Sequence record: MK295204
Source: Shigella phage vB_SdyM_006
DNA: 64,000 nucleotides
Direction: 5' to 3' (one strand)
Part shown: positions 1 through 53,871 of the stretch, in pieces
Layout of the letters: every line of letters begins with the position of its first letter
How positions within the stretch are numbered: the stretch's first letter is position 1
Position numbers and translations under genes: made by a program
The notes under the pieces: model-generated
Seen by the model: the letters and a program-made list of their open reading frames with translations, nothing else
The model's database searches: none
Told to the model about the DNA's origin: nothing

Positions 1-112
1 TATCAAATTCTTCATTACCTAAACCAGTTAGGCTAATTCCATCGATACTAATATTCCATTGTCCAAAGCATAGCGTTGGATAAGACCCAGTCCACTCTAC
101 AAAAATTTTCAT
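1..112 (-). CDS. hypothetical protein, partial (start codon at 110-112, runs off the window edge)
   Basis: Open minus-strand frame from ATG at 110-112 to position 1 (MKIFVEWTGSYPTLCFGQWNISIDG...); not in the ORF track because it is truncated. Confidence 0.35.
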   Translation of the reverse strand, partial: MKIFVEWTGSYPTLCFGQWNISIDGISLTGLGNEEFD

Positions 113-230
113 GTAATTCCTTATAAACATACCACAATTGCAGTTAAAAATATAAAAACCATAACAGGAACATACCAAATGGTTTTTATAGCATCATTAG
201 GTTTTTCTGAGTCAAACATGATAATCTCGA

Positions 231-584
231 TTAATAATAAATAGTATTCCCAACATAAATTTTGTTTGGATTTGTAATATTATTTAAAATTTGTAAATAT
301 TCAACAGACACGCCAAGGTTCATAGCAATTTCGCTCAGTGTGTCATTAAATCGTACTGTATATGAAAATAAATTTGAATCACGATTAATTGACGCAGTTA
401 AAAAATCAACAGAATTCAGAACTTCAAAAGTCATCGCTTTGTCGTTGCCACTATTAAAGCCAATACCACGCTTAAGAATAGAAACGATAGTTGTACCTTC
501 ACCTGTTTCAGAAGCACCGATGATGTTACGTGTATCAACCATAAAACGTGATAAATCATCTGCAGAAGTTAAAATAATTTTCAT
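231..584 (-). CDS. LysM-domain protein (putative peptidoglycan-binding)
   Basis: C-terminal ~45 aa fit the LysM pattern (YTVRFNDTLSEIAMNLGVSVEYLQILNNITNPNKIYVGNTIY); no signal peptide. Confidence 0.6.
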   Translation of the reverse strand: MKIILTSADDLSRFMVDTRNIIGASETGEGTTIVSILKRGIGFNSGNDKAMTFEVLNSVDFLTASINRDSNLFSYTVRFNDTLSEIAMNLGVSVEYLQILNNITNPNKIYVGNTIYY

Positions 585-593
585 AGTATTTCC

Positions 594-986
594 TTACCAA
601 GAATAAGCAAAACCTGCACCAAGAGTAGAATTAGATTTGTTATCAAATGCACCAGACATTTTTAATGTTACATTTGTGTTTTCTGGATGAGCACCAAAAG
701 CGACAGCTACAGCTGAACCAGATTTATAACCACCAACACCTAAGCCTAAAGAAATGGTTTTAGAAAAATCTAATGGAACATTATTCATAGCAGAAGCAGA
801 AGCAAATCCAGCTTTTACTTGGTCCATTTTTCCGTCAACATCTTTAATATATCTATTCCAGGATTCATTTACAGTTCCTTCGTGAAAAGTATGATTAAGA
901 TTTGGACTAATCCAATTATTATCTGATGCAATTGAACCAGAACTCAAAACTAATAATGAAGCCATAAAAATAAATTTTAAATTCAT
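594..986 (-). CDS. secreted protein with YadA-like (trimeric autotransporter) C-terminal membrane-anchor domain
   Basis: N-terminal signal peptide (MNLKFIFMASLLVLSSGSIA); C-terminal alternating beta-strand pattern ending ...GAGFAYSW, like TAA anchors that end in Y-x-W. Confidence 0.5.
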   Translation of the reverse strand: MNLKFIFMASLLVLSSGSIASDNNWISPNLNHTFHEGTVNESWNRYIKDVDGKMDQVKAGFASASAMNNVPLDFSKTISLGLGVGGYKSGSAVAVAFGAHPENTNVTLKMSGAFDNKSNSTLGAGFAYSW

Positions 987-1127
987 AATTTTTTCCTTGT
1001 TTGTTTAAAGTAGAAACACTATATCATAGATTATATAAAAGCTAAATTTCTTTTATTTTAAAAACAAAAAAGGTCCAACATTTCTGTGGACCTTAAAAGC
1101 AACTTCTTTTATTATTTATTTTAAATT

Positions 1128-1203
1128 TGGTACACCTACGGGAATTCGAATCCCGGTTACACGCTCGAAAGGCGTGGGTCCTAGACCACTAGACGATAGG
1201 TGC
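1128..1203 (-). tRNA. tRNA-Glu (anticodon UUC)
   Basis: Manual cloverleaf on reverse complement: 7-bp acceptor stem, T-loop TTCGAAT, anticodon loop CTTTCGA, 3' CCA encoded. Confidence 0.8.
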
Positions 1204-1210
1204 ATTAAAA

Positions 1211-1302
1211 TGGAGGAGAGTATGGGATTCGAACCCATGGAACAGCGTAACTGTCCAACGGTTTTCAAGACCGTCTCAATAATCCATCTCTGACAACTCT
1301 CC
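1211..1302 (-). tRNA. tRNA-Ser (anticodon UGA), type II with long variable arm
   Basis: Acceptor GGAGAGT/ACTCTCC, anticodon loop CTTGAAA, long variable arm, T-loop TTCGAAT, CCA encoded. Confidence 0.8.
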
Positions 1303-1309
1303 AATATAA

Positions 1310-1627
1310 TTAAAACAGTAGACTATAAACAGTACCTTTACAATCTATAGGTTGTGTTTTTGAATATTCTTTAAATAGATTTAAATAACCAATTTCTTCA
1401 GGTTCCCATTGTCCTTCTAAACCATAACATGAACAATGTGAGCCGTTAACTTCCCAAAATATATCATTACTATCTTTGAAGATTACAGTAGCATACCCAG
1501 AATAATCTTCATAATCGTAATATGCTAAAATGATTTCTTTGTCATTAAGTGAATCCATAGGGATTTGGAATTCATGACAGATGTCTTCTTTTGAAGTAAA
1601 CAGTTCCATAAACACATTAGTTTTCAT
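1310..1627 (-). CDS. hypothetical protein
   Basis: Track ORF 1310..1720 trimmed to internal ATG at 1625-1627 (MKTNVF...) because the 5' extension overlaps tRNA-Asp. Confidence 0.45.
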   Translation of the reverse strand: MKTNVFMELFTSKEDICHEFQIPMDSLNDKEIILAYYDYEDYSGYATVIFKDSNDIFWEVNGSHCSCYGLEGQWEPEEIGYLNLFKEYSKTQPIDCKGTVYSLLF

Positions 1628-1650
1628 ATCAATATCCTCAAAATTAATTT

Positions 1651-1726
1651 TGGCGGTCTTACCGAGAATCGAACTCGGTGCTGTTCCGTGACAGGGAACT
1701 ATGTTAACCAGGTACACCATAAGACC
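1651..1726 (-). tRNA. tRNA-Asp (anticodon GUC)
   Basis: Acceptor GGTCTTA/TAAGACC, anticodon stem GTTCC/GGAAC with loop CTGTCAC, T-loop TTCGATT, CCA encoded. Confidence 0.8.
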
Positions 1727-1919
1727 TTAAAAATGTACCCATCCGGCTTTCCAGTCTGGTGAAGGGTTGTCACCTCTAGTTTAAACCTGCTAGTCAAGTA
1801 ATAATTGCATATCGTCCAATTATCAAAACCGTCTAGGTTATATTACACCACTTCCTAGAATACCGTCTAAGCGGACTTGATCGACGTAGATTACACCATA
1901 TACGTCTGATTGTGGAATT

Positions 1920-1994
1920 TGGAGCGATCTACGGGTATCGAACCCGTATCTTCTGGGTGGAAACCAGAAATAATAGCCATTATACTAAGATCGC
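1920..1994 (-). tRNA. tRNA-Gly (anticodon UCC)
   Basis: Perfect acceptor stem GCGATCT/AGATCGC, anticodon loop TTTCCAC, T-loop TTCGATA, CCA encoded. Confidence 0.85.
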
Positions 1995-2615
1995 ATATTT
2001 ATTAATAAATCTTCTTGCTTGGGTATGACTTAATCCTATATGTTTAGCAAATTTATTTAAGTTACCTCTTATTGAAATATCAAATGATTTTAATATTTCT
2101 AATCTATAATTAATTTCGTCTTTTGACAATGTAGAGGCATTATTAATAGAAATTTTGTTTTTAGATATATCCGAATGTCTCTTATTTTTAAAACCAAACG
2201 AATTTTTCTTTTTGCTAAAATCATATAATCCGAGTCTAAGTCTTTTCTTAAATGTATTAACTTGTTTACTTATAGTTAATTTAGATTTTGGCAATGAATT
2301 TATATAATCCCAACCACCTTCACCACCAACTTTTAAATTATATGTATTTTTGCTTTTAACAAATTTTTCTGTAACTATTTTGGCTTCATGTATAAACATG
2401 TCATACTTATTTTTATGAAATTTTAAAATAGTTTTTTCAAAATTTTCTTTGCCATATTTTTCTATGGCTTTTTTCAAAATCTTACCTGAACCAAAATATC
2501 CATCTTCTAAATCTTTGGTTTTATGAACACCTATATAAATTTTATTATTTATTTTATTTTTAATTTTGTATGTATAATAAAACATTATAGCCTTATTTAT
2601 CTTTTGGTACTCCAT
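1980..2615 (-). CDS. GIY-YIG homing endonuclease (Seg-like) embedded in the tRNA cluster
   Basis: N-terminal GIY-YIG motif (FYYTYKIKNKINNKIYIGV...GSG), basic C-terminal region; T4 segB sits in the equivalent tRNA region; 3' end overlaps tRNA-Gly by 15 nt. Confidence 0.6.
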   Translation of the reverse strand: MEYQKINKAIMFYYTYKIKNKINNKIYIGVHKTKDLEDGYFGSGKILKKAIEKYGKENFEKTILKFHKNKYDMFIHEAKIVTEKFVKSKNTYNLKVGGEGGWDYINSLPKSKLTISKQVNTFKKRLRLGLYDFSKKKNSFGFKNKRHSDISKNKISINNASTLSKDEINYRLEILKSFDISIRGNLNKFAKHIGLSHTQARRFINKYAILV

Positions 2616-2779
2616 TCTTTATTAGTTGCTTTATTAACAGCAGTAGAATAAGAATTTTTAATATCTTCTGTAACAGAATAGCCAGTTAACATAGTAGAAA
2701 TTAAAATAACATATCCAAGCATTAATAAAATACAAGATAAAAATCCTGCAATAATAAGAATTGTACCTAAAGTAGTCAT
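2597..2779 (-). CDS. small hydrophobic (membrane) protein
   Basis: Track ORF 2597..2890 trimmed to internal ATG at 2777-2779 (MTTLGTILIIAGFLSCILLMLGYVILI...) because the 5' extension overlaps tRNA-Met/Ile. Confidence 0.35.
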   Translation of the reverse strand: MTTLGTILIIAGFLSCILLMLGYVILISTMLTGYSVTEDIKNSYSTAVNKATNKEWSTKR

Positions 2780-2798
2780 ATTGTTCTCACAAATTATT

Positions 2799-2874
2799 TG
2801 GTGACCCACCATGGAATCGAACCATGCTCCAACGCTTATGAGGCGTTCGCTTTCAACCAGTAAGCTAGAGGGCC
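2799..2874 (-). tRNA. tRNA with CAU anticodon (Met, or Ile if lysidine-modified)
   Basis: Anticodon stem AACGC/GCGTT with loop CTCATAA, T-loop TTCGATT, CCA encoded; one T-T mismatch in acceptor stem. Confidence 0.7.
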
Positions 2875-2881
2875 TTGCAAT

Positions 2882-2966
2882 TGGTGGCACCGGGTAGACT
2901 CGAACTACCGAAGGCCGAAGCCTGGAGATTTACAGTCTCCTGTCATTGCCGCTAGACTACGATGCC
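2882..2966 (-). tRNA. tRNA-Tyr (anticodon GUA), type II
   Basis: Acceptor GGCATCG/CGGTGCC, discriminator A, anticodon loop CTGTAAA, long variable arm, CCA encoded. Confidence 0.8.
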
Positions 2967-3011
2967 TTTTCTTATCAATAACGACTAAAAATAATCGTTA
3001 TTAATCAGAAT

Positions 3012-3088
3012 TGGTACACACTACTGGATTCGAACCAGTGACCTACGGTTTAGAAGACCGTTGCTCTATCCATCTGAGCTAAGCATGC
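3012..3088 (-). tRNA. tRNA-Arg (anticodon UCU)
   Basis: D-stem GCTC/GAGC, anticodon stem ACGGT/ACCGT with loop CTTCTAA, T-loop TTCGAAT, CCA encoded; three G-U pairs in acceptor stem. Confidence 0.75.
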
Positions 3089-3089
3089 A

Positions 3090-3380
3090 TTATAAGTACT
3101 GTTTAATCAGTTCTTCGTTATTTTTAAAAAGAATAAAAATATTATCACGAACTTCAGTATCTGAGATATGCCATTTCATAGCATCAATTAAAATGTCTTT
3201 TGGGATCATATTATATAAATTATTTAGTAAAGCAATATTATTTATATCAATATCAACTTCAAATAATTCAAAAATACAACACGAAATAGAATCATAAAAA
3301 TCTTTAATGTCTATTTCATACTTAGACAAATTATTTATAAATTCTGTTTTAGCTTGTTCTGGATTATGTGCTTTAAACAT
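3090..3380 (-). CDS. hypothetical protein
   Basis: ORF in track, same strand as neighbours, no recognisable motif. Confidence 0.45.
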   Translation of the reverse strand: MFKAHNPEQAKTEFINNLSKYEIDIKDFYDSISCCIFELFEVDIDINNIALLNNLYNMIPKDILIDAMKWHISDTEVRDNIFILFKNNEELIKQYL

Positions 3381-3402
3381 TTTTATTCCTATTATTCTAA
3401 AA

Positions 3403-3477
3403 TGGCAGGCTCTGTAGGAATCGAACCCACGTCTTCGGATTTGGAATCCGGTATTCTACCGACTGAACTAAGAACCT
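3403..3477 (-). tRNA. tRNA-Trp (anticodon CCA)
   Basis: Acceptor AGGTTCT/AGAGCCT, anticodon loop TTCCAAA, T-loop TTCGATT, CCA encoded. Confidence 0.75.
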
Positions 3478-3478
3478 T

Positions 3479-3562
3479 TGGCGGGCAGTGTAGGATTCGA
3501 ACCTACGTCGTCAAATGACACGGATTAACAGTCCGCTGCTTAATCCACTCAGCCAACTACCC
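3479..3562 (-). tRNA. tRNA with GUU (Asn) anticodon but type-II architecture (13-nt variable arm)
   Basis: Acceptor GGGTAGT/ACTGCCC, discriminator G, 3-bp D-stem, anticodon stem GCGGA/TCCGT with loop CTGTTAA, variable-arm hairpin GTCATTTGAC, CCA encoded. Confidence 0.6.
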
Positions 3563-3898
3563 AATAATTTTTGCATCTTCTGAATAACTAGAAATACTAC
3601 CCCATTCTGAAGTATTAAATGAAACTTTATTTCCGTTTTTGAACTCTATAACTATATTTATATTGTCAACAGAAATCTCATTATCAGATGATTCTCTTTC
3701 TGAGGTTTTTAAATATGTATCCATAGTTTCAATAGTCACTTCTTCTGTTTGAAGAAGAGGTGAATAGTACTCAGCTAAATAAACTTTATTTACAATATCA
3801 CCAAAAATAGTTTTAGCAATATCAGTTAATTTAGTTGTTTCTTTTAATAAATGTTTCATAATATGTCCTTCACATGGAGTAGAAATTAATAATAACAC
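3557..3898 (-). CDS. hypothetical protein
   Basis: ORF in track; 3' end abuts tRNA. Confidence 0.45.
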   Translation of the reverse strand: MLLLISTPCEGHIMKHLLKETTKLTDIAKTIFGDIVNKVYLAEYYSPLLQTEEVTIETMDTYLKTSERESSDNEISVDNINIVIEFKNGNKVSFNTSEWGSISSYSEDAKIIG

Positions 3899-3922
3899 AA
3901 ATAATATGAAAGCATTTCTGTT

Positions 3923-4279
3923 TTAATATTTGTGTTTTGTTTTTCTAACTAATGTAACCTGAAAAGGTGTTTCCATACAATATGTATGGACAACAGAATC
4001 TTTGTCACGATTATGATAATATGGATAATAAGCTACACGATAACCTTCACGCGTAAATCCTAATAGAACGCCAACACTTAGTCCTTTACCGCCACCTATA
4101 GATGAGTAAGAGACAATATCACCAGGACTAATATGATTACCGATCATATCGTGTTTAGGTGTCCCTTGCGTCAACTTGTGGTGCATTTCGTATAGTTCAG
4201 GGTCTGTCTTTAAAATTTCAGAAAAACCTAATTGGTTCTCTGCCTTAAACAGAGAAAAAGCTTCTTGAATTGTCATCAC
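3923..4279 (-). CDS. hypothetical protein
   Basis: ORF in track; a 43-codon upstream ORF (4276..4406) overlaps its start in an ATGA arrangement. Confidence 0.5.
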   Translation of the reverse strand: MMTIQEAFSLFKAENQLGFSEILKTDPELYEMHHKLTQGTPKHDMIGNHISPGDIVSYSSIGGGKGLSVGVLLGFTREGYRVAYYPYYHNRDKDSVVHTYCMETPFQVTLVRKTKHKY

Positions 4280-4416
4280 CAGCCCTCGTCTTCGCGTTCT
4301 TGATAATTATAATAAGTATCACGTTCTTCGCCGTTAGATTCTTTTTTGGATTGATTTTCAAAAAAACGTTGTAGTTCTCTTGCTTCTCGGATTTCTTTTT
4401 CTGTCATAGTATATCC

Positions 4417-4791
4417 TTACTCTATCTCTTTATGATCGCCCACTTTATATTTTTCTAAAGCTTCATCTTTAGATTTAGCTTCAATTTCGTATAAAATAGG
4501 AGTGTACCATTCGCCACAAAAAACCGAATCGTTTGAGTCTATTAAATCAGCATGTTTATCAATATACTCTTTGATATCGTCTGGGCTATCTAAAAATTCT
4601 AGACACTCTTCTTCGTATCCAACCAATTCAATAAAATGTTCTAATACTGCAATATAGTATTTTTTATTAAGGTGACTAGTATTTAATCTAAATACTCTTC
4701 CTGTTGGAGGAACAACAGGTCGTATTTCCATAAGACCTTTATCAATCATTTCTTTAATGATTGGAAGATCTTGGATTTCTGGCCGTTGCAT
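4417..4791 (-). CDS. hypothetical protein
   Basis: ORF in track. Confidence 0.5.
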   Translation of the reverse strand: MQRPEIQDLPIIKEMIDKGLMEIRPVVPPTGRVFRLNTSHLNKKYYIAVLEHFIELVGYEEECLEFLDSPDDIKEYIDKHADLIDSNDSVFCGEWYTPILYEIEAKSKDEALEKYKVGDHKEIE

Positions 4792-4809
4792 AATATTCCT
4801 TAAATTTAA

Positions 4810-5097
4810 TCACGAAATTGATTTTACAAAATTCGGAAAAAGATTTTTAATAATAAAAATATGGATTATTGCAGAAATACCTGCACCCATAATTAGCACT
4901 ACAAATCCTAAAATAAGCCCAGCCATCATAGCATATTGCATATCTTCAGGAACACTCATAGCCCGTTCGTATTCAGAAAAGAATTTCTTTTGGACTAACC
5001 AATCATAAATAAACCAAAAATATAACCCGCATGAGCTTCCTACTAAAGTCAGCCAATAAATAAACCCAACAAAATTTTTAGTGCTCTCATTTTTCAT
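4810..5097 (-). CDS. hypothetical membrane protein
   Basis: ORF in track; two or three hydrophobic helices. Confidence 0.5.
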   Translation of the reverse strand: MKNESTKNFVGFIYWLTLVGSSCGLYFWFIYDWLVQKKFFSEYERAMSVPEDMQYAMMAGLILGFVVLIMGAGISAIIHIFIIKNLFPNFVKSIS

Positions 5098-5129
5098 AAT
5101 CTATTTCTCACAATTTTTGTTAACGAAAC

Positions 5130-5342
5130 TTAATAACCAAGTTCTTCAATAAAACCATCTAAGGACCAATTGTATTTCATTTCTGATTTACTGTAAACAA
5201 ATATTTTAGAGTTTTCAATTTTATCATAATCTTCTGGATTAACGTTGTTTGATAATGGGCACACTAATTTTAAGCATTCAATATTAGATGCAAATCCAAC
5301 AAATAAAAAATCAAGGTCTTTTAAAGAATAGATTTTAATCAT
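5130..5342 (-). CDS. hypothetical protein
   Basis: ORF in track. Confidence 0.4.
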   Translation of the reverse strand: MIKIYSLKDLDFLFVGFASNIECLKLVCPLSNNVNPEDYDKIENSKIFVYSKSEMKYNWSLDGFIEELGY

Positions 5343-5774
5343 TTAACTAATCTGCTTCAAAGGTTGAGTGATAATAGGTTTATCAACAAAATACACTTTC
5401 ATTTCATCGAAAACACGAATAAAATCATAATCATATTGTACAGGCTCACCAAGAATAGTTTGTAAAGCTTTTAATAAATTACTACTTGGAAAATATTTGT
5501 CTACAAATTCTTGAGAAATTTTTGATTCTGAAAGTAATTTATCTAAATTTGTTCTAATACCATCTTCAATGTCATAAAAATCTTCATTACAAAGATCTTC
5601 GCCACCATGATAACTTGGCTTAAAGATCATAAGAACATTTGAGAACATAGTCACTTCTTCTAGAGTGAGGCCATCAAAATACTGGGTAGAAAAATCATCT
5701 GCGTCATTTTCCCAAGTAGTAACAGAAATTAAATATCCTGATTTAACATTTAAGCCATTAATTAATTCTTTCAT
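5343..5774 (-). CDS. hypothetical protein
   Basis: ORF in track, abuts the preceding ORF. Confidence 0.5.
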   Translation of the reverse strand: MKELINGLNVKSGYLISVTTWENDADDFSTQYFDGLTLEEVTMFSNVLMIFKPSYHGGEDLCNEDFYDIEDGIRTNLDKLLSESKISQEFVDKYFPSSNLLKALQTILGEPVQYDYDFIRVFDEMKVYFVDKPIITQPLKQIS

Positions 5775-5844
5775 TTTATATACCGTGTTGTTTAAAAGAA
5801 TTTAATCATATACAAGAATATTTTTATGCGATTAAAAACCAAAA

Positions 5845-5868
5845 AAGAGACCGAAGTCTCTTTTTAAT
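5845..5868. terminator. bidirectional intrinsic terminator (hairpin AGAGACCGAAGTCTCT with A-run and T-run flanks)
   Basis: GC-rich 6-bp stem, CGAA loop, flanking A/T tracts. Confidence 0.55.
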
Positions 5869-5882
5869 TAGTTAGTATGGTT

Positions 5883-6161
5883 TTATAAAGTGCTCTTTAA
5901 AGCCTTTTCTATATCTTTTGAATTAAGATTAACTTCTGTTTTGGCCACTATAGCTTTAGAAATATTAAATTTCTTAAATTTTGAAGAATTTAAAATAGTT
6001 TTTAAATCTTTAGCTTCTATGACATCTACAACGTCATTTTCGTTTTTACTTCCAATAATTACAGCACGATAGCCTTCAATTTCATCATATTTAGAAAATC
6101 TATATTGGAATTCTACACTAAAATCTTTAGATTCATTCAAAAATTCATCAAATGTTTTCAT
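5883..6161 (-). CDS. hypothetical protein
   Basis: ORF in track; preceded by a sigma70-like promoter. Confidence 0.5.
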   Translation of the reverse strand: MKTFDEFLNESKDFSVEFQYRFSKYDEIEGYRAVIIGSKNENDVVDVIEAKDLKTILNSSKFKKFNISKAIVAKTEVNLNSKDIEKALKSTL

Positions 6162-8490: not shown

Positions 8491-8656
8491 ATTAATTTAT
8501 TAAAAGTATAGTATATTCTATATAACTATTAAGTAATAAATTAATAACTATATGTTACTATTTCTAAAGAAATCTGGAGCTGCGCTCCAGAATTTTTATT
8601 ATTTTATTAAGTTCTTTATATATTATATATAACTATTAAGTAATAAATTAATAACT
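8491..8656. repeat. copy A of a ~166-bp element: two 31-bp direct repeats (8519-8549, 8626-8656) flanking a GC hairpin CTGGAGC-TGC-GCTCCAG (8574-8590); inverted copy at 53705-53871
   Basis: Direct comparison: reverse complement of 53705-53871 matches 8491-8656 except for the 3-nt hairpin loop. Confidence 0.9.
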
Positions 8657-8664
8657 GTACGTTA

Positions 8665-53697: not shown

Positions 53698-53704
53698 TTT
53701 ACTA

Positions 53705-53871
53705 TAGTTATTAATTTATTACTTAATAGTTATATATAATATATAAAGAACTTAATAAAATAATAAAAATTCTGGAGCTGCGCTCCAGATTTCTTTAGAA
53801 ATAGTAACATATAGTTATTAATTTATTACTTAATAGTTATATAGAATATACTATACTTTTAATAAATTAAT
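53705..53871. repeat. copy B (inverted) of the ~166-bp element; hairpin CTGGAGC-TGC-GCTCCAG at 53771-53787
   Basis: Reverse complement identical to 8491-8656 apart from the 3-nt hairpin loop. Confidence 0.9.

What the first reader, a model, noticed from the sequence alone, without database searches (positions are those of the whole stretch)
1920..2615. GIY-YIG homing endonuclease inside the tRNA cluster, overlapping tRNA-Gly
A Seg-like GIY-YIG ORF sits between tRNA-Gly and tRNA-Met/Ile, and its last 15 nt overlap the 5' end of tRNA-Gly. Homing endonucleases in tRNA clusters drive localised gene conversion, and the overlap implies coupled transcript processing.
Basis: partly seen in the sequence, partly recalled or inferred. 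Interest (0 to 1): 0.4.

Follow-up and report, generated by a model that had tools for sequence, protein, structure and literature searches.

The report
SegB-like homing endonuclease in phage tRNA cluster
A selfish DNA-cutting gene of the well-known phage T4 SegB type sits among the tRNA genes of a T4-like Proteus/Shigella phage and runs 15 bases into the next tRNA gene; this is an ordinary, already described arrangement for this gene family.

Summary
An intact ORF on the minus strand (likely start ATG 2585, 201 aa; stop TAA 1980-1982) encodes a GIY-YIG nuclease. Its last 15 nt are the first 15 nt of tRNA-Gly(UCC) (1920-1994).

- **Identity.** It is a SegB-family free-standing homing endonuclease: 56% identical to T4 SegB over the catalytic domain, with a different helix-turn-helix C-terminus. 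It is 100% identical to the annotated "endonuclease" of Shigella phage vB_SdyM_006.
- **Comparison with relatives.** The backbone is about 98% identical to Proteus phage phiP4-3. phiP4-3, Pm5461 and PM2 lack the gene. At that site they carry tRNA-Pro plus an 86-aa ORF. Against phiP4-3, the foreign patch spans about 1700-2596. It holds the endonuclease gene, a divergent but intact tRNA-Gly allele and a 193-nt RNA element. This matches the T4 versus T2L picture.
- **Overlap.** Of 57 non-redundant homologues, 15 stop inside the downstream tRNA and 8 stop within 10 nt before it. Processing-coupled repression was already proposed for T4 segB. It is untested here.

Verdict: a new member of a known kind, of low interest. 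The more novel item is the neighbouring 193-nt spacer (1727-1919). It is a conserved structured RNA with no Rfam match, found in tRNA clusters of several unrelated phage groups.

The parts
1980..2585 (-). SegB-like GIY-YIG homing endonuclease gene: 201 codons plus stop TAA at 1980-1982. The longest ORF extends to ATG 2615, but that start is not supported.
   Evidence: ORF list. 100% identical to 'endonuclease [Shigella phage vB_SdyM_006]', 201 aa. PHROG 314 E 2.7e-44. Homologue alignments fix the start. Single copy in the window. GC 22% against 32% for the window.
2301..2585 (-). N-terminal GIY-YIG catalytic domain (residues 1-95).
   Evidence: Pfam PF19835 at 26.5 bits, above the gathering cut-off, and PF01541 at E 0.016. 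56% identity to T4 SegB. Every residue that is invariant across the 21-sequence alignment with T4 SegB is by definition also present here: Y6, N10, Y17, G19, H21, D28, Y30, G32-S33-G34, E67, N83. AF2 pLDDT 88-97; Foldseek top hit is I-TevI 1mk0, probability 1.0.
1983..2123 (-). C-terminal helical DNA-binding module, predicted helix-turn-helix with the motif RG.L.KFAK.IG.SHTQARRFI (residues 155-201). A low-confidence linker covering residues ~96-154 precedes it.
   Evidence: AF2 pLDDT 83-93 over residues 160-200. S186, H187, T188, Q189 and R192 are nearly invariant or invariant in the family. No similarity to the T4 SegB C-terminus. No Pfam family. The Foldseek HTH/homeodomain hits are not significant. 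tblastn finds this module at about 67-76 kb in most listed T-even-like genomes, the position of the T4 tRNA region; some records are numbered from a different start and give other coordinates.
1980..1994 (-). 15-nt overlap: the codons for A-I-L-V plus the stop TAA are tRNA-Gly positions 1-15.
   Evidence: Sequence. The same type of overlap occurs in 15 of 57 non-redundant homologue loci.
1920..1994 (-). tRNA-Gly(UCC), a divergent allele with an encoded CCA end.
   Evidence: ARAGORN. Rfam tRNA 60.6 bits. Only 80-83% identical to the tRNA-Gly of any phage record. Differences from phiP4-3 in the acceptor and T stems are compensatory: 5-68 U-A/C-G, 50-64 C-G/G-C, 52-62 G-C/A-U.
2586..2596 (-). 11-nt spacer ATAAGGCTATA carrying the Shine-Dalgarno AAGG. 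It is the upstream junction of the foreign patch.
   Evidence: Four-phage alignment: after the shared stop TAA (2597-2599) the relatives continue with tRNA-Pro +1, while the window continues with this spacer. Only a weak hairpin forms here (-6.2 kcal/mol, z -1.4), against -19.4 (z -4.9) in T4 segB.
2597..2779 (-). 60-aa membrane-protein ORF. This is the upstream neighbour and the right-hand homology arm.
   Evidence: phrog_21538 E 2.6e-36. Positions 2597-2846 are 99.6% identical to phiP4-3.
1727..1919 (-). 193-nt spacer holding a conserved ~185-nt structured RNA. It is part of the patch that is foreign relative to phiP4-3.
   Evidence: Absent from phiP4-3. 82-93% identical in 12 other phages or contigs from several unrelated phage groups, co-oriented with nearby tRNA genes. 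Six-hairpin model: 100% of 489 cells paired and 4 compensatory pairs. No Rfam hit.
1651..1726 (-). tRNA-Asp(GUC). This is the left-hand boundary and homology arm of the patch.
   Evidence: ARAGORN. Identity to phiP4-3 is 98.2% over 1-1726, falling to 93.4% over 1501-1726. The window's D-loop variant matches Pm5461 and PM2.

Best explanation
This is a free-standing homing endonuclease gene of the T4 SegB family, in the family's usual habitat, a T4-like phage tRNA cluster.

**The protein (shown).** It has an intact GIY-YIG nuclease domain, a flexible linker and a C-terminal helical DNA-binding module.

**How it acts (inferred from T4/T6 SegB).** During co-infection it would cut the tRNA-gene region of a related phage that lacks it. 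Recombinational repair from the phage carrying the gene would then copy the gene and its flanking markers into the cut genome.

**The trace of such an event (shown).** The backbone is about 98% identical to phiP4-3. A sharply bounded patch of about 0.9 kb replaces the relatives' own tRNA-Gly allele, an 86-aa ORF and tRNA-Pro. The patch holds the endonuclease gene, a foreign but functional tRNA-Gly allele and a 193-nt RNA element. This phage therefore has no tRNA-Pro in its cluster.

**Expression (shown for layout, inferred for consequence).** The gene is transcribed within the tRNA-cluster precursor. It has no stop codon of its own, so it reads on to a TAA in the D-loop of tRNA-Gly. RNase P cleavage at tRNA-Gly +1 would remove the last four codons and the stop, leaving a non-stop message. 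Only unprocessed precursor could then yield full-length nuclease. That would keep a nuclease of relaxed specificity at a low dose.
For: **Family and intactness.**
- PHROG 314 E 2.7e-44; Pfam SegE_GIY-YIG above its gathering score.
- 56% identity to T4 SegB over residues 1-120.
- All family-invariant residues are kept, including Y17 and G19. Mutating these two abolishes T6 SegB activity.
- The AF2 model matches the I-TevI catalytic domain.
- Full length relative to 44 homologues.

**Sporadic presence.**
- phiP4-3, Pm5461 and PM2 lack the gene at the same locus.
- The nearest homologue is only about 52% identical.

**Patch boundaries.**
- Positions 1-1726 are 98.2% identical to phiP4-3. Positions 2597-2846 are 99.6% identical. 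The backbone 5882-55712 is 97.95% identical.
- No remnant of tRNA-Pro or the 86-aa ORF survives in the window.
- The gene's GC content is 22% against 32% for the window.

**tRNA-Gly allele.** It is 80-83% identical to the tRNA-Gly of any phage record. Its stem differences from phiP4-3 are compensatory.

**Family habit.**
- 74 of the 83 loci first surveyed have a tRNA within 1.5 kb.
- After clustering at 90% identity, 15 of 57 clusters stop inside the next tRNA and 8 stop 0-10 nt before it.

**Published precedent.**
- T4 SegB cuts tRNA genes and converts the T2L tRNA region. The authors proposed that tRNA-Arg maturation severs the segB mRNA at its stop codon (PMC2330249).
- SegB homologues are enriched near tRNAs, p = 1.4e-50 (PMC13096335).
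Against: - Nothing here shows nuclease activity, target site or homing.
- The C-terminal DNA-binding half is unrelated to that of T4 SegB, so T4's target motif cannot simply be transferred. In any case that motif (GGTTCRANTCC...CCAR) fits the lost tRNA-Pro but also tRNA-Met, Arg and Asn, which are still present in the window.
- Positions 2847-4184 are also mosaic against phiP4-3 and hold no endonuclease gene. Ordinary recombination in a plastic region could therefore have made the patch.
- The patch has no gradient of co-conversion on its right side.
- The strong RBS-sequestering hairpin of T4 segB is absent.
- The overlap could be a passive result of compaction. Conserved tRNA nucleotides (U8-A9-G10 and the D-loop UAA/UAG) stop any ORF that reads in.
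Confidence: 0.75

Rival explanations
1. The gene is a fixed, possibly inactive or domesticated passenger. The mosaic patch arose by ordinary homologous recombination between co-infecting phages in a hyperplastic tRNA region, not by endonuclease-driven homing.
For: The adjoining 2847-4184 region is equally mosaic against phiP4-3, with different tRNAs (Trp, Asn) and different ORFs, and holds no endonuclease gene. The patch edges coincide with conserved tRNA and ORF ends, where any recombination would resolve. The gene is a singleton in the databases.
Against: The ORF is full length with every family-invariant residue kept. Its distribution is sporadic: absent from three close relatives. T4 SegB has been shown to cause exactly this kind of replacement.
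Confidence: 0.15
2. The nuclease is retained mainly because it benefits the phage. It would make breaks in the tRNA array that drive segmental amplification of tRNA or anti-defence genes under pressure from tRNA-targeting host defences, as shown for T6 SegB against Septu.
For: PMC13096335 shows SegB-dependent amplification of tRNA-Tyr plus segB. The window gene shares the catalytic domain and the tRNA-cluster setting.
Against: The window shows no tandem duplication or flanking repeats around the gene beyond tRNA T-arm similarity, and the gene is single copy. This role is compatible with homing rather than an alternative to it.
Confidence: 0.08
3. The 15-nt overlap has no regulatory meaning. 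It is a by-product of a compact insertion in which the ORF lost, or never had, its own stop and ends at the first stop supplied by conserved tRNA nucleotides.
For: Overlap lengths in the family cluster at 10 nt (the conserved UAG at tRNA positions 8-10) and at 14-15 nt (D-loop UAA). The overlapped tail AILV is not conserved among homologues. The relatives' tRNA-Gly would give an in-frame TAG at the same place.
Against: 40% of non-redundant family members end inside or within 10 nt of a tRNA 5' end. For T4, the published view is that tRNA maturation cuts the segB mRNA at its stop codon. This reading concerns only the overlap and is compatible with the main explanation.
Confidence: 0.45

Closest known systems
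Phage T4/T6 SegB, a free-standing GIY-YIG homing endonuclease in the tRNA gene cluster (PMC2330249; PMC13096335)
   Same: The catalytic domain is 56% identical and begins with the same MFYYTYKI.NKINNKIYIGVH sequence, with Y17 and G19 conserved. Both are free-standing and co-oriented with the tRNAs. Each is followed directly by a tRNA and then by a small stable or structured RNA: in T4, segB, tRNA-Arg, rnaD, rnaC. Relatives lacking the gene carry other ORFs and tRNAs at the site, as T2L does.
   Different: The C-terminal DNA-binding half is unrelated: an HTH with an SHTQARRF motif here, against a NUMOD3-like region in T4. The stop lies 15 nt inside the tRNA rather than 5 nt before it. There is no upstream tRNA with a ~40-65-nt leader and no strong RBS hairpin. 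The neighbouring tRNAs differ.
'segB' or 'homing endonuclease' genes with an HTH C-terminus in other T-even-like phages (RB18, RB51, HY01, Klebsiella Jiaodavirus such as Mineola and KP13MC5-5; P0002-P0048)
   Same: Full-length homology at 42-52% identity, with the same two-domain layout and the same C-terminal SHTQ.RRF motif. They sit in tRNA clusters. In L008 and L009 the stop overlaps tRNA-Pro by 10 nt.
   Different: No member is closer than about 52% identity. The flanking tRNAs differ: Gly|gene|Pro in Jiaodavirus, membrane ORF|gene|Gly here.
I-TevI, a group I intron-encoded GIY-YIG endonuclease of T4 td
   Same: The catalytic domain has the same fold (Foldseek probability 1.0, TM-score 0.63 normalised to the target; phmmer E 0.003). 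Both are modular, with a nuclease, a linker and a DNA-binding domain.
   Different: The window gene is not inside an intron. TIGR01453 scores 22 bits against a cut-off of 56. The I-TevI stretch that contains Arg27 aligns to a gap in Seg-type proteins.

Membership tests
GIY-YIG nuclease superfamily | GIY...YIG motifs and conserved catalytic Glu/Asn in an ~90-residue alpha/beta domain | tested here: met
   YTY(4-6)...YIG(17-19), E67, N83. Pfam PF19835 at 26.5 bits against a gathering cut-off of 25. The generic PF01541 model scores below its cut-off (16 against 22.6 bits). The structure model matches I-TevI 1mk0/1ln0.
SegB-family free-standing homing endonucleases | Catalytic domain homologous to T4 SegB | tested here: met
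   56% identity over 120 residues, E 2e-42. DNA 73.6% identical to T4 segB over 288 nt.
SegB-family free-standing homing endonucleases | DNA-binding C-terminal half homologous to T4 SegB | tested here: not met
   No alignment beyond residue ~120. The C-terminus instead matches the HTH type found in RB18, RB51 and Jiaodavirus 'segB' genes.
SegB-family free-standing homing endonucleases | Free-standing gene (not in an intron or intein) within a phage tRNA gene cluster | tested here: met
   It lies between a 60-aa ORF and tRNA-Gly, within a 9-tRNA cluster. 74 of 83 homologue loci also have tRNAs within 1.5 kb.
Homing endonuclease genes in general | Sporadic distribution: present or absent at the same locus among close relatives | tested here: met
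   Absent from phiP4-3 (backbone about 98% identical), Pm5461 and PM2 at the same site.
Homing endonuclease genes in general | Site-specific cleavage of the allele that lacks the gene | not testable with these tools
   Only a motif scan was possible. The T4 SegB-type motif is present in the lost tRNA-Pro but also in three retained tRNAs, so it does not discriminate.
Homing endonuclease genes in general | Nuclease-dependent biased inheritance in mixed infection | not testable with these tools
   Requires phage crosses.
Group I intron endonucleases (TIGR01453, I-TevI type) | Scores above the family cut-off and resides in a self-splicing intron | tested here: not met
   22.4 bits against a cut-off of 56.05. 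No intron RNA family in 1-6000.

The most novel reading that the evidence does not exclude
Placing the stop codon inside the tRNA is a selected dosage brake used by a large part of the SegB family (about 40% of lineages end inside or within 10 nt of a tRNA). RNase P cleavage at tRNA +1 would convert the endonuclease mRNA into a non-stop message. Nuclease output would then be tied inversely to tRNA maturation. In this phage the mobile unit would also carry cargo: a tRNA-Gly allele and a previously undescribed 185-nt structured RNA. That RNA has spread among tRNA clusters of several unrelated phage groups.
Probability: 0.3. Interest if true: 0.55.

Novelty: new member of a known kind. Interest (0 to 1): 0.22.

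Why it matters
The gene itself adds little. SegB-type endonucleases in phage tRNA clusters have been characterised since 2008. Their association with tRNAs was quantified in 2026, and this gene is already annotated as an endonuclease in GenBank.

Its use is as a clean natural example:
- A pair of genomes about 98% identical, differing by a sharply bounded cassette, shows what one such event adds (a nuclease, a new tRNA-Gly allele, a structured RNA) and removes (tRNA-Pro, an 86-aa ORF).
- The stop codon lying 15 nt inside the tRNA makes the old T4 idea of processing-coupled repression easy to test.

The adjacent 185-nt RNA is a separate lead that may be worth more than the endonuclease gene.

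Tried and rejected
- **T4-style translational sequestration.** T4 segB's hairpin was reproduced (-19.4 kcal/mol, z -4.9). The window has only a weak hairpin (-6.2, z -1.4). Not claimed.
- **Transferring the T4 SegB recognition motif to predict the target.** GGTTCRANTCC + 11 nt + CCAR fits the lost tRNA-Pro but also the retained tRNA-Met, Arg and Asn. Not discriminating, and the DNA-binding domain differs.
- **Remnants of tRNA-Pro or the 86-aa ORF in the window.** None found.
- **Flanking direct or inverted repeats, or tandem amplification around the gene.** Only tRNA T-arm similarity was found.
- **Donor of the tRNA-Gly allele.** No phage record is closer than about 83%.
- **Family assignment for the C-terminal domain.** No Pfam hit. 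The Foldseek HTH hits are not significant.
- **Promoter and terminator scan.** The promoter-like count is no better than in shuffled sequence. Four terminator-like sites were found against 1.2 expected, but none was used.
- **The 193-nt element.**
  - No Rfam family at E <= 10.
  - No nhmmer similarity to T4 rnaC/rnaD or to 80 other tRNA-cluster loci.
  - No match in E. coli genomes.
  - The GTDB scan gave only scattered 17-mer matches in unrelated taxa, taken as chance.
  - No paper contains its sequence.
  - The RNAalifold long-range pairings were set aside. One is broken in contig L128 and they carry almost no covariation. A local six-hairpin model was preferred.

Full report
**What is there**

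The first 4 kb of the window hold a minus-strand tRNA cluster. Its members are Glu 1128-1203, Ser 1211-1302, Asp 1651-1726, Gly 1920-1994, Met/Ile(CAU) 2799-2874, Tyr 2882-2966, Arg 3012-3088, Trp 3403-3477 and Asn 3479-3562 (confirmed by Rfam).

An ORF runs on the same strand from 2615 to 1980. Its final codons, GCG ATC TTA GTA TAA, are positions 1-15 of tRNA-Gly, so the reported 15-nt overlap is exact.

The first ATG (2615) is not the likely start:
- Homologues begin at the methionine encoded at 2585.
- An AAGG Shine-Dalgarno lies 5 nt upstream of it.
- The only identical database protein is 201 aa long. It is annotated 'endonuclease [Shigella phage vB_SdyM_006]' and sits on a 166-kb contig.

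The gene's upstream neighbour is a 60-aa membrane-protein ORF (2597-2779, phrog_21538), not a tRNA. Its stop lies 11 nt before the ATG.

**What the protein is**

Sequence and structure agree that it is a GIY-YIG nuclease:
- PHROG 314 'homing endonuclease', E 2.7e-44.
- Pfam SegE_GIY-YIG at 26.5 bits, just above the gathering score. The generic GIY-YIG model scores below its threshold.
- The only PDB sequence hits are the I-TevI catalytic domain.
- An AlphaFold model (mean pLDDT 80, and 88-97 over residues 1-80) has the I-TevI catalytic domain as its only significant Foldseek hit.

Against T4 SegB, residues 1-120 are 56% identical (E 2e-42), with an almost identical N-terminus. All residues invariant in a 21-sequence alignment that includes T4 SegB are retained. 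Among them are Y17 and G19, whose mutation inactivates T6 SegB (PMC13096335).

The C-terminal half has no similarity to T4 SegB. It ends in a confidently modelled helical module with a conserved RG..K..K..G.SHTQ.RRF motif. This module is shared with many 42-52% identical homologues, several annotated segB (RB18, RB51), and with Klebsiella Jiaodavirus genes. It matches no Pfam family.

The protein therefore belongs to the SegB family by its catalytic domain and genomic setting, but to a sub-type with a different DNA-binding module. It is not an intron endonuclease: TIGR01453 scores 22 bits against a cut-off of 56, and no intron RNA is present.

**Relatives without the gene**

The window backbone is Bragavirus-like. 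Positions 5882-55712 align collinearly to Proteus phage phiP4-3 at 97.95%, and positions 1-1726 at 98.2%.

phiP4-3, Pm5461 and PM2 all lack the endonuclease gene. In the direction of transcription they read:

membrane ORF | tRNA-Pro | spacer | 86-aa ORF (phrog_27235, unknown function) | tRNA-Gly | [193-nt element in Pm5461 and PM2 only] | tRNA-Asp.

The window reads:

membrane ORF | 11 nt | endonuclease gene | tRNA-Gly | 193-nt element | tRNA-Asp.

The nucleotide alignment places the junctions as follows:
- The upstream junction is exactly at the membrane ORF's TAA, where the relatives begin tRNA-Pro.
- The downstream junction is at tRNA-Gly +1, where the relatives' 86-aa ORF ends with a TAA abutting the tRNA.

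Other features of the patch:
- Sequence immediately outside it is nearly identical to phiP4-3. Positions 2597-2846 are 99.6% identical, and 1501-1726 are 93.4% identical, with a tRNA-Asp D-loop variant shared with Pm5461 and PM2.
- Inside the patch, tRNA-Gly is only about 80% identical to that of the relatives and to any phage record. Its acceptor-stem and T-stem differences are compensatory, so it is a functional allele of different origin.
- No fragment of tRNA-Pro or the 86-aa ORF remains. No tRNA-Pro exists anywhere in the 64-kb window.
- The endonuclease gene has 22% GC against 32% for the window.

This is the same picture as T4 versus T2L. There, SegB-initiated repair replaces the T2L tRNA region with the T4 version, and T2L markers are lost (PMC2330249).

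One caution applies. Positions 2847-4184 are also mosaic against phiP4-3, with tRNA-Trp and tRNA-Asn and different ORFs, and no endonuclease gene lies there. Recombination in this plastic region does not strictly need the nuclease.

**The overlap with the tRNA**

I collected 80 related loci from viral contigs and added three metagenome loci. For the second analysis I also added T4 and the window itself.
- 74 of the 83 loci first surveyed have tRNAs within 1.5 kb. The upstream tRNA usually ends 40-65 nt before the ATG.
- After clustering the proteins at 90% identity there are 57 clusters. In 15 the stop lies inside the downstream tRNA, with overlaps of 1-47 nt and recurring values of 10 and 14-15. 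In 8 the stop lies 0-10 nt before the tRNA. T4 segB stops 5 nt before tRNA-Arg.

The recurring overlaps correspond to stop triplets supplied by conserved tRNA nucleotides: U8-A9-G10 and the D-loop UAA. The relatives' tRNA-Gly would give an in-frame TAG at the same position.

The overlap is therefore a family habit rather than a peculiarity of this phage. It has two non-exclusive readings:
1. **Passive compaction.** The overlapped tail AILV is not conserved.
2. **Repression.** RNase P cleavage at tRNA +1 removes the stop and yields a non-stop message.

The second reading was proposed by the authors of the T4 SegB paper, alongside an RBS-sequestering hairpin. That hairpin folds strongly in T4 (-19.4 kcal/mol, z -4.9) but has no real counterpart here (-6.2, z -1.4). 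If the gene is repressed, processing would have to carry more of the load. None of this is shown.

**Target**

T4 SegB recognises the T-arm motif GGTTCRANTCC followed by CCAR at tRNA 3' ends. The tRNA-Pro missing from the window has a perfect version of this motif. So do tRNA-Met, Arg and Asn, which the window retains, and the DNA-binding module differs from T4's. I therefore do not predict a target.

**Verdict on the finding**

The thing is a new, divergent member (52% identity or less to anything else) of a well-studied kind:
- SegB in tRNA clusters was described in 2008.
- The association with tRNAs was quantified across 386 homologues in 2026.
- The gene is already annotated in its GenBank record.

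Interest is low.

**Side observation**

The 193-nt spacer between tRNA-Gly and tRNA-Asp (1727-1919) is not a spacer.
- *Distribution.* It is absent from phiP4-3. It is 82-93% identical in Pm5461 and PM2, Morganella phage vB_Mm5, Proteus phage 1 (Demerecviridae), the jumbo Asteriusvirus phages (121Q, EJP2, PBECO4), the Alcyoneusvirus phages (RaK2, Muenster, K64-1) and two metagenome contigs. In every case it lies in or next to a tRNA cluster and is co-oriented with nearby tRNA genes. In several cases a tRNA lies within a few nucleotides. It is unannotated or covered by dubious tiny ORFs.
- *No known relative.* It has no Rfam match. nhmmer finds no similarity to T4 rnaC/rnaD. It has no match in E. 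coli genomes or in the genome collection of one genome per GTDB species. Its sequence appears in no paper.
- *Structure.* A six-hairpin model drawn from the sequences has 100% of 489 cells paired. Four pairs carry compensatory double changes, reached by 0-1 of 500 shuffles. Slid controls give 24-46% pairing. Because the model was derived from these same sequences, and they are close relatives, this is suggestive rather than proof.
- *Position.* It occupies the same position as the T4 species 1/2 RNAs, directly after the tRNA that follows segB. Its function is unknown.

Noticed in passing
window 1727-1919 (minus strand): A conserved ~185-nt structured RNA lies between tRNA-Gly and tRNA-Asp. It is present at 82-93% identity in or next to tRNA clusters of Bragavirus, a Morganella T4-like phage, a Demerecviridae Proteus phage and two jumbo-phage genera. 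It is absent from phiP4-3 and has no Rfam match. A six-hairpin model shows 100% pairing and 4 compensatory pairs. It occupies the same position as T4 rnaC/rnaD but shows no sequence similarity to them.
   Followed up: yes
window 1-64000; compare L001 3141-3217, L002 2195-2271, L003 2197-2270: This phage has no tRNA-Pro(UGG) in its cluster or anywhere in the 64-kb window. phiP4-3, Pm5461 and PM2 each have one exactly where the endonuclease gene now sits, so acquiring the gene cost a tRNA.
   Followed up: yes
window 2847-4184: A second mosaic stretch relative to phiP4-3 (77% identity or no homology). The window has tRNA-Trp, tRNA-Asn and ORFs 3090-3380 and 3557-3898. phiP4-3 has other small ORFs there, and PM2 has tRNA-Lys and tRNA-Asn. 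No endonuclease gene lies in this stretch.
   Followed up: partly
window 8491-8659 and 53703-53871: A 169-bp inverted repeat (97.6% identical), with copies 45 kb apart. Each copy contains a GC-rich hairpin (CTGGAGC...GCTCCAG) flanked by an internal AT-rich direct repeat. Both copies map to intergenic positions in phiP4-3. It looks like a bidirectional terminator/promoter module.
   Followed up: partly
phage T2 AP018813.1 67716-67907; Salmonella phage pSe_SNUABM_01 L012 1716-2198; Citrobacter phage CkP1 68853-69047: The C-terminal HTH module of this endonuclease also occurs in T2-type phages, at 58-65% identity, in ORFs annotated as hypothetical at the genome position of the T4 tRNA region. In pSe_SNUABM_01 it lies in a 160-aa ORF beside a separate SegB-like gene, which suggests a split or decayed endonuclease. 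One T2 record labels the site 'tail sheath monomer', probably a mis-annotation. The CkP1 ORF overlaps tRNA-Thr.
   Followed up: no
window 1310-1630 (minus strand): A 106-aa ORF lies between tRNA-Ser and tRNA-Asp and is conserved in the relatives. It matches phrog_8792 (unknown function), with a weaker match to a PHROG labelled integrase (phrog_21421, E 7e-21). The longest ORF call (1310-1720) runs into tRNA-Asp.
   Followed up: no
L096 (Klebsiella phage Muenster) 423-1241: In Muenster an HNH endonuclease (T5 TflIV-like) sits between tRNA-Leu and tRNA-Gly, about 260 nt upstream of that phage's copy of the 185-nt RNA. A different endonuclease family thus occupies the same kind of niche.
   Followed up: no
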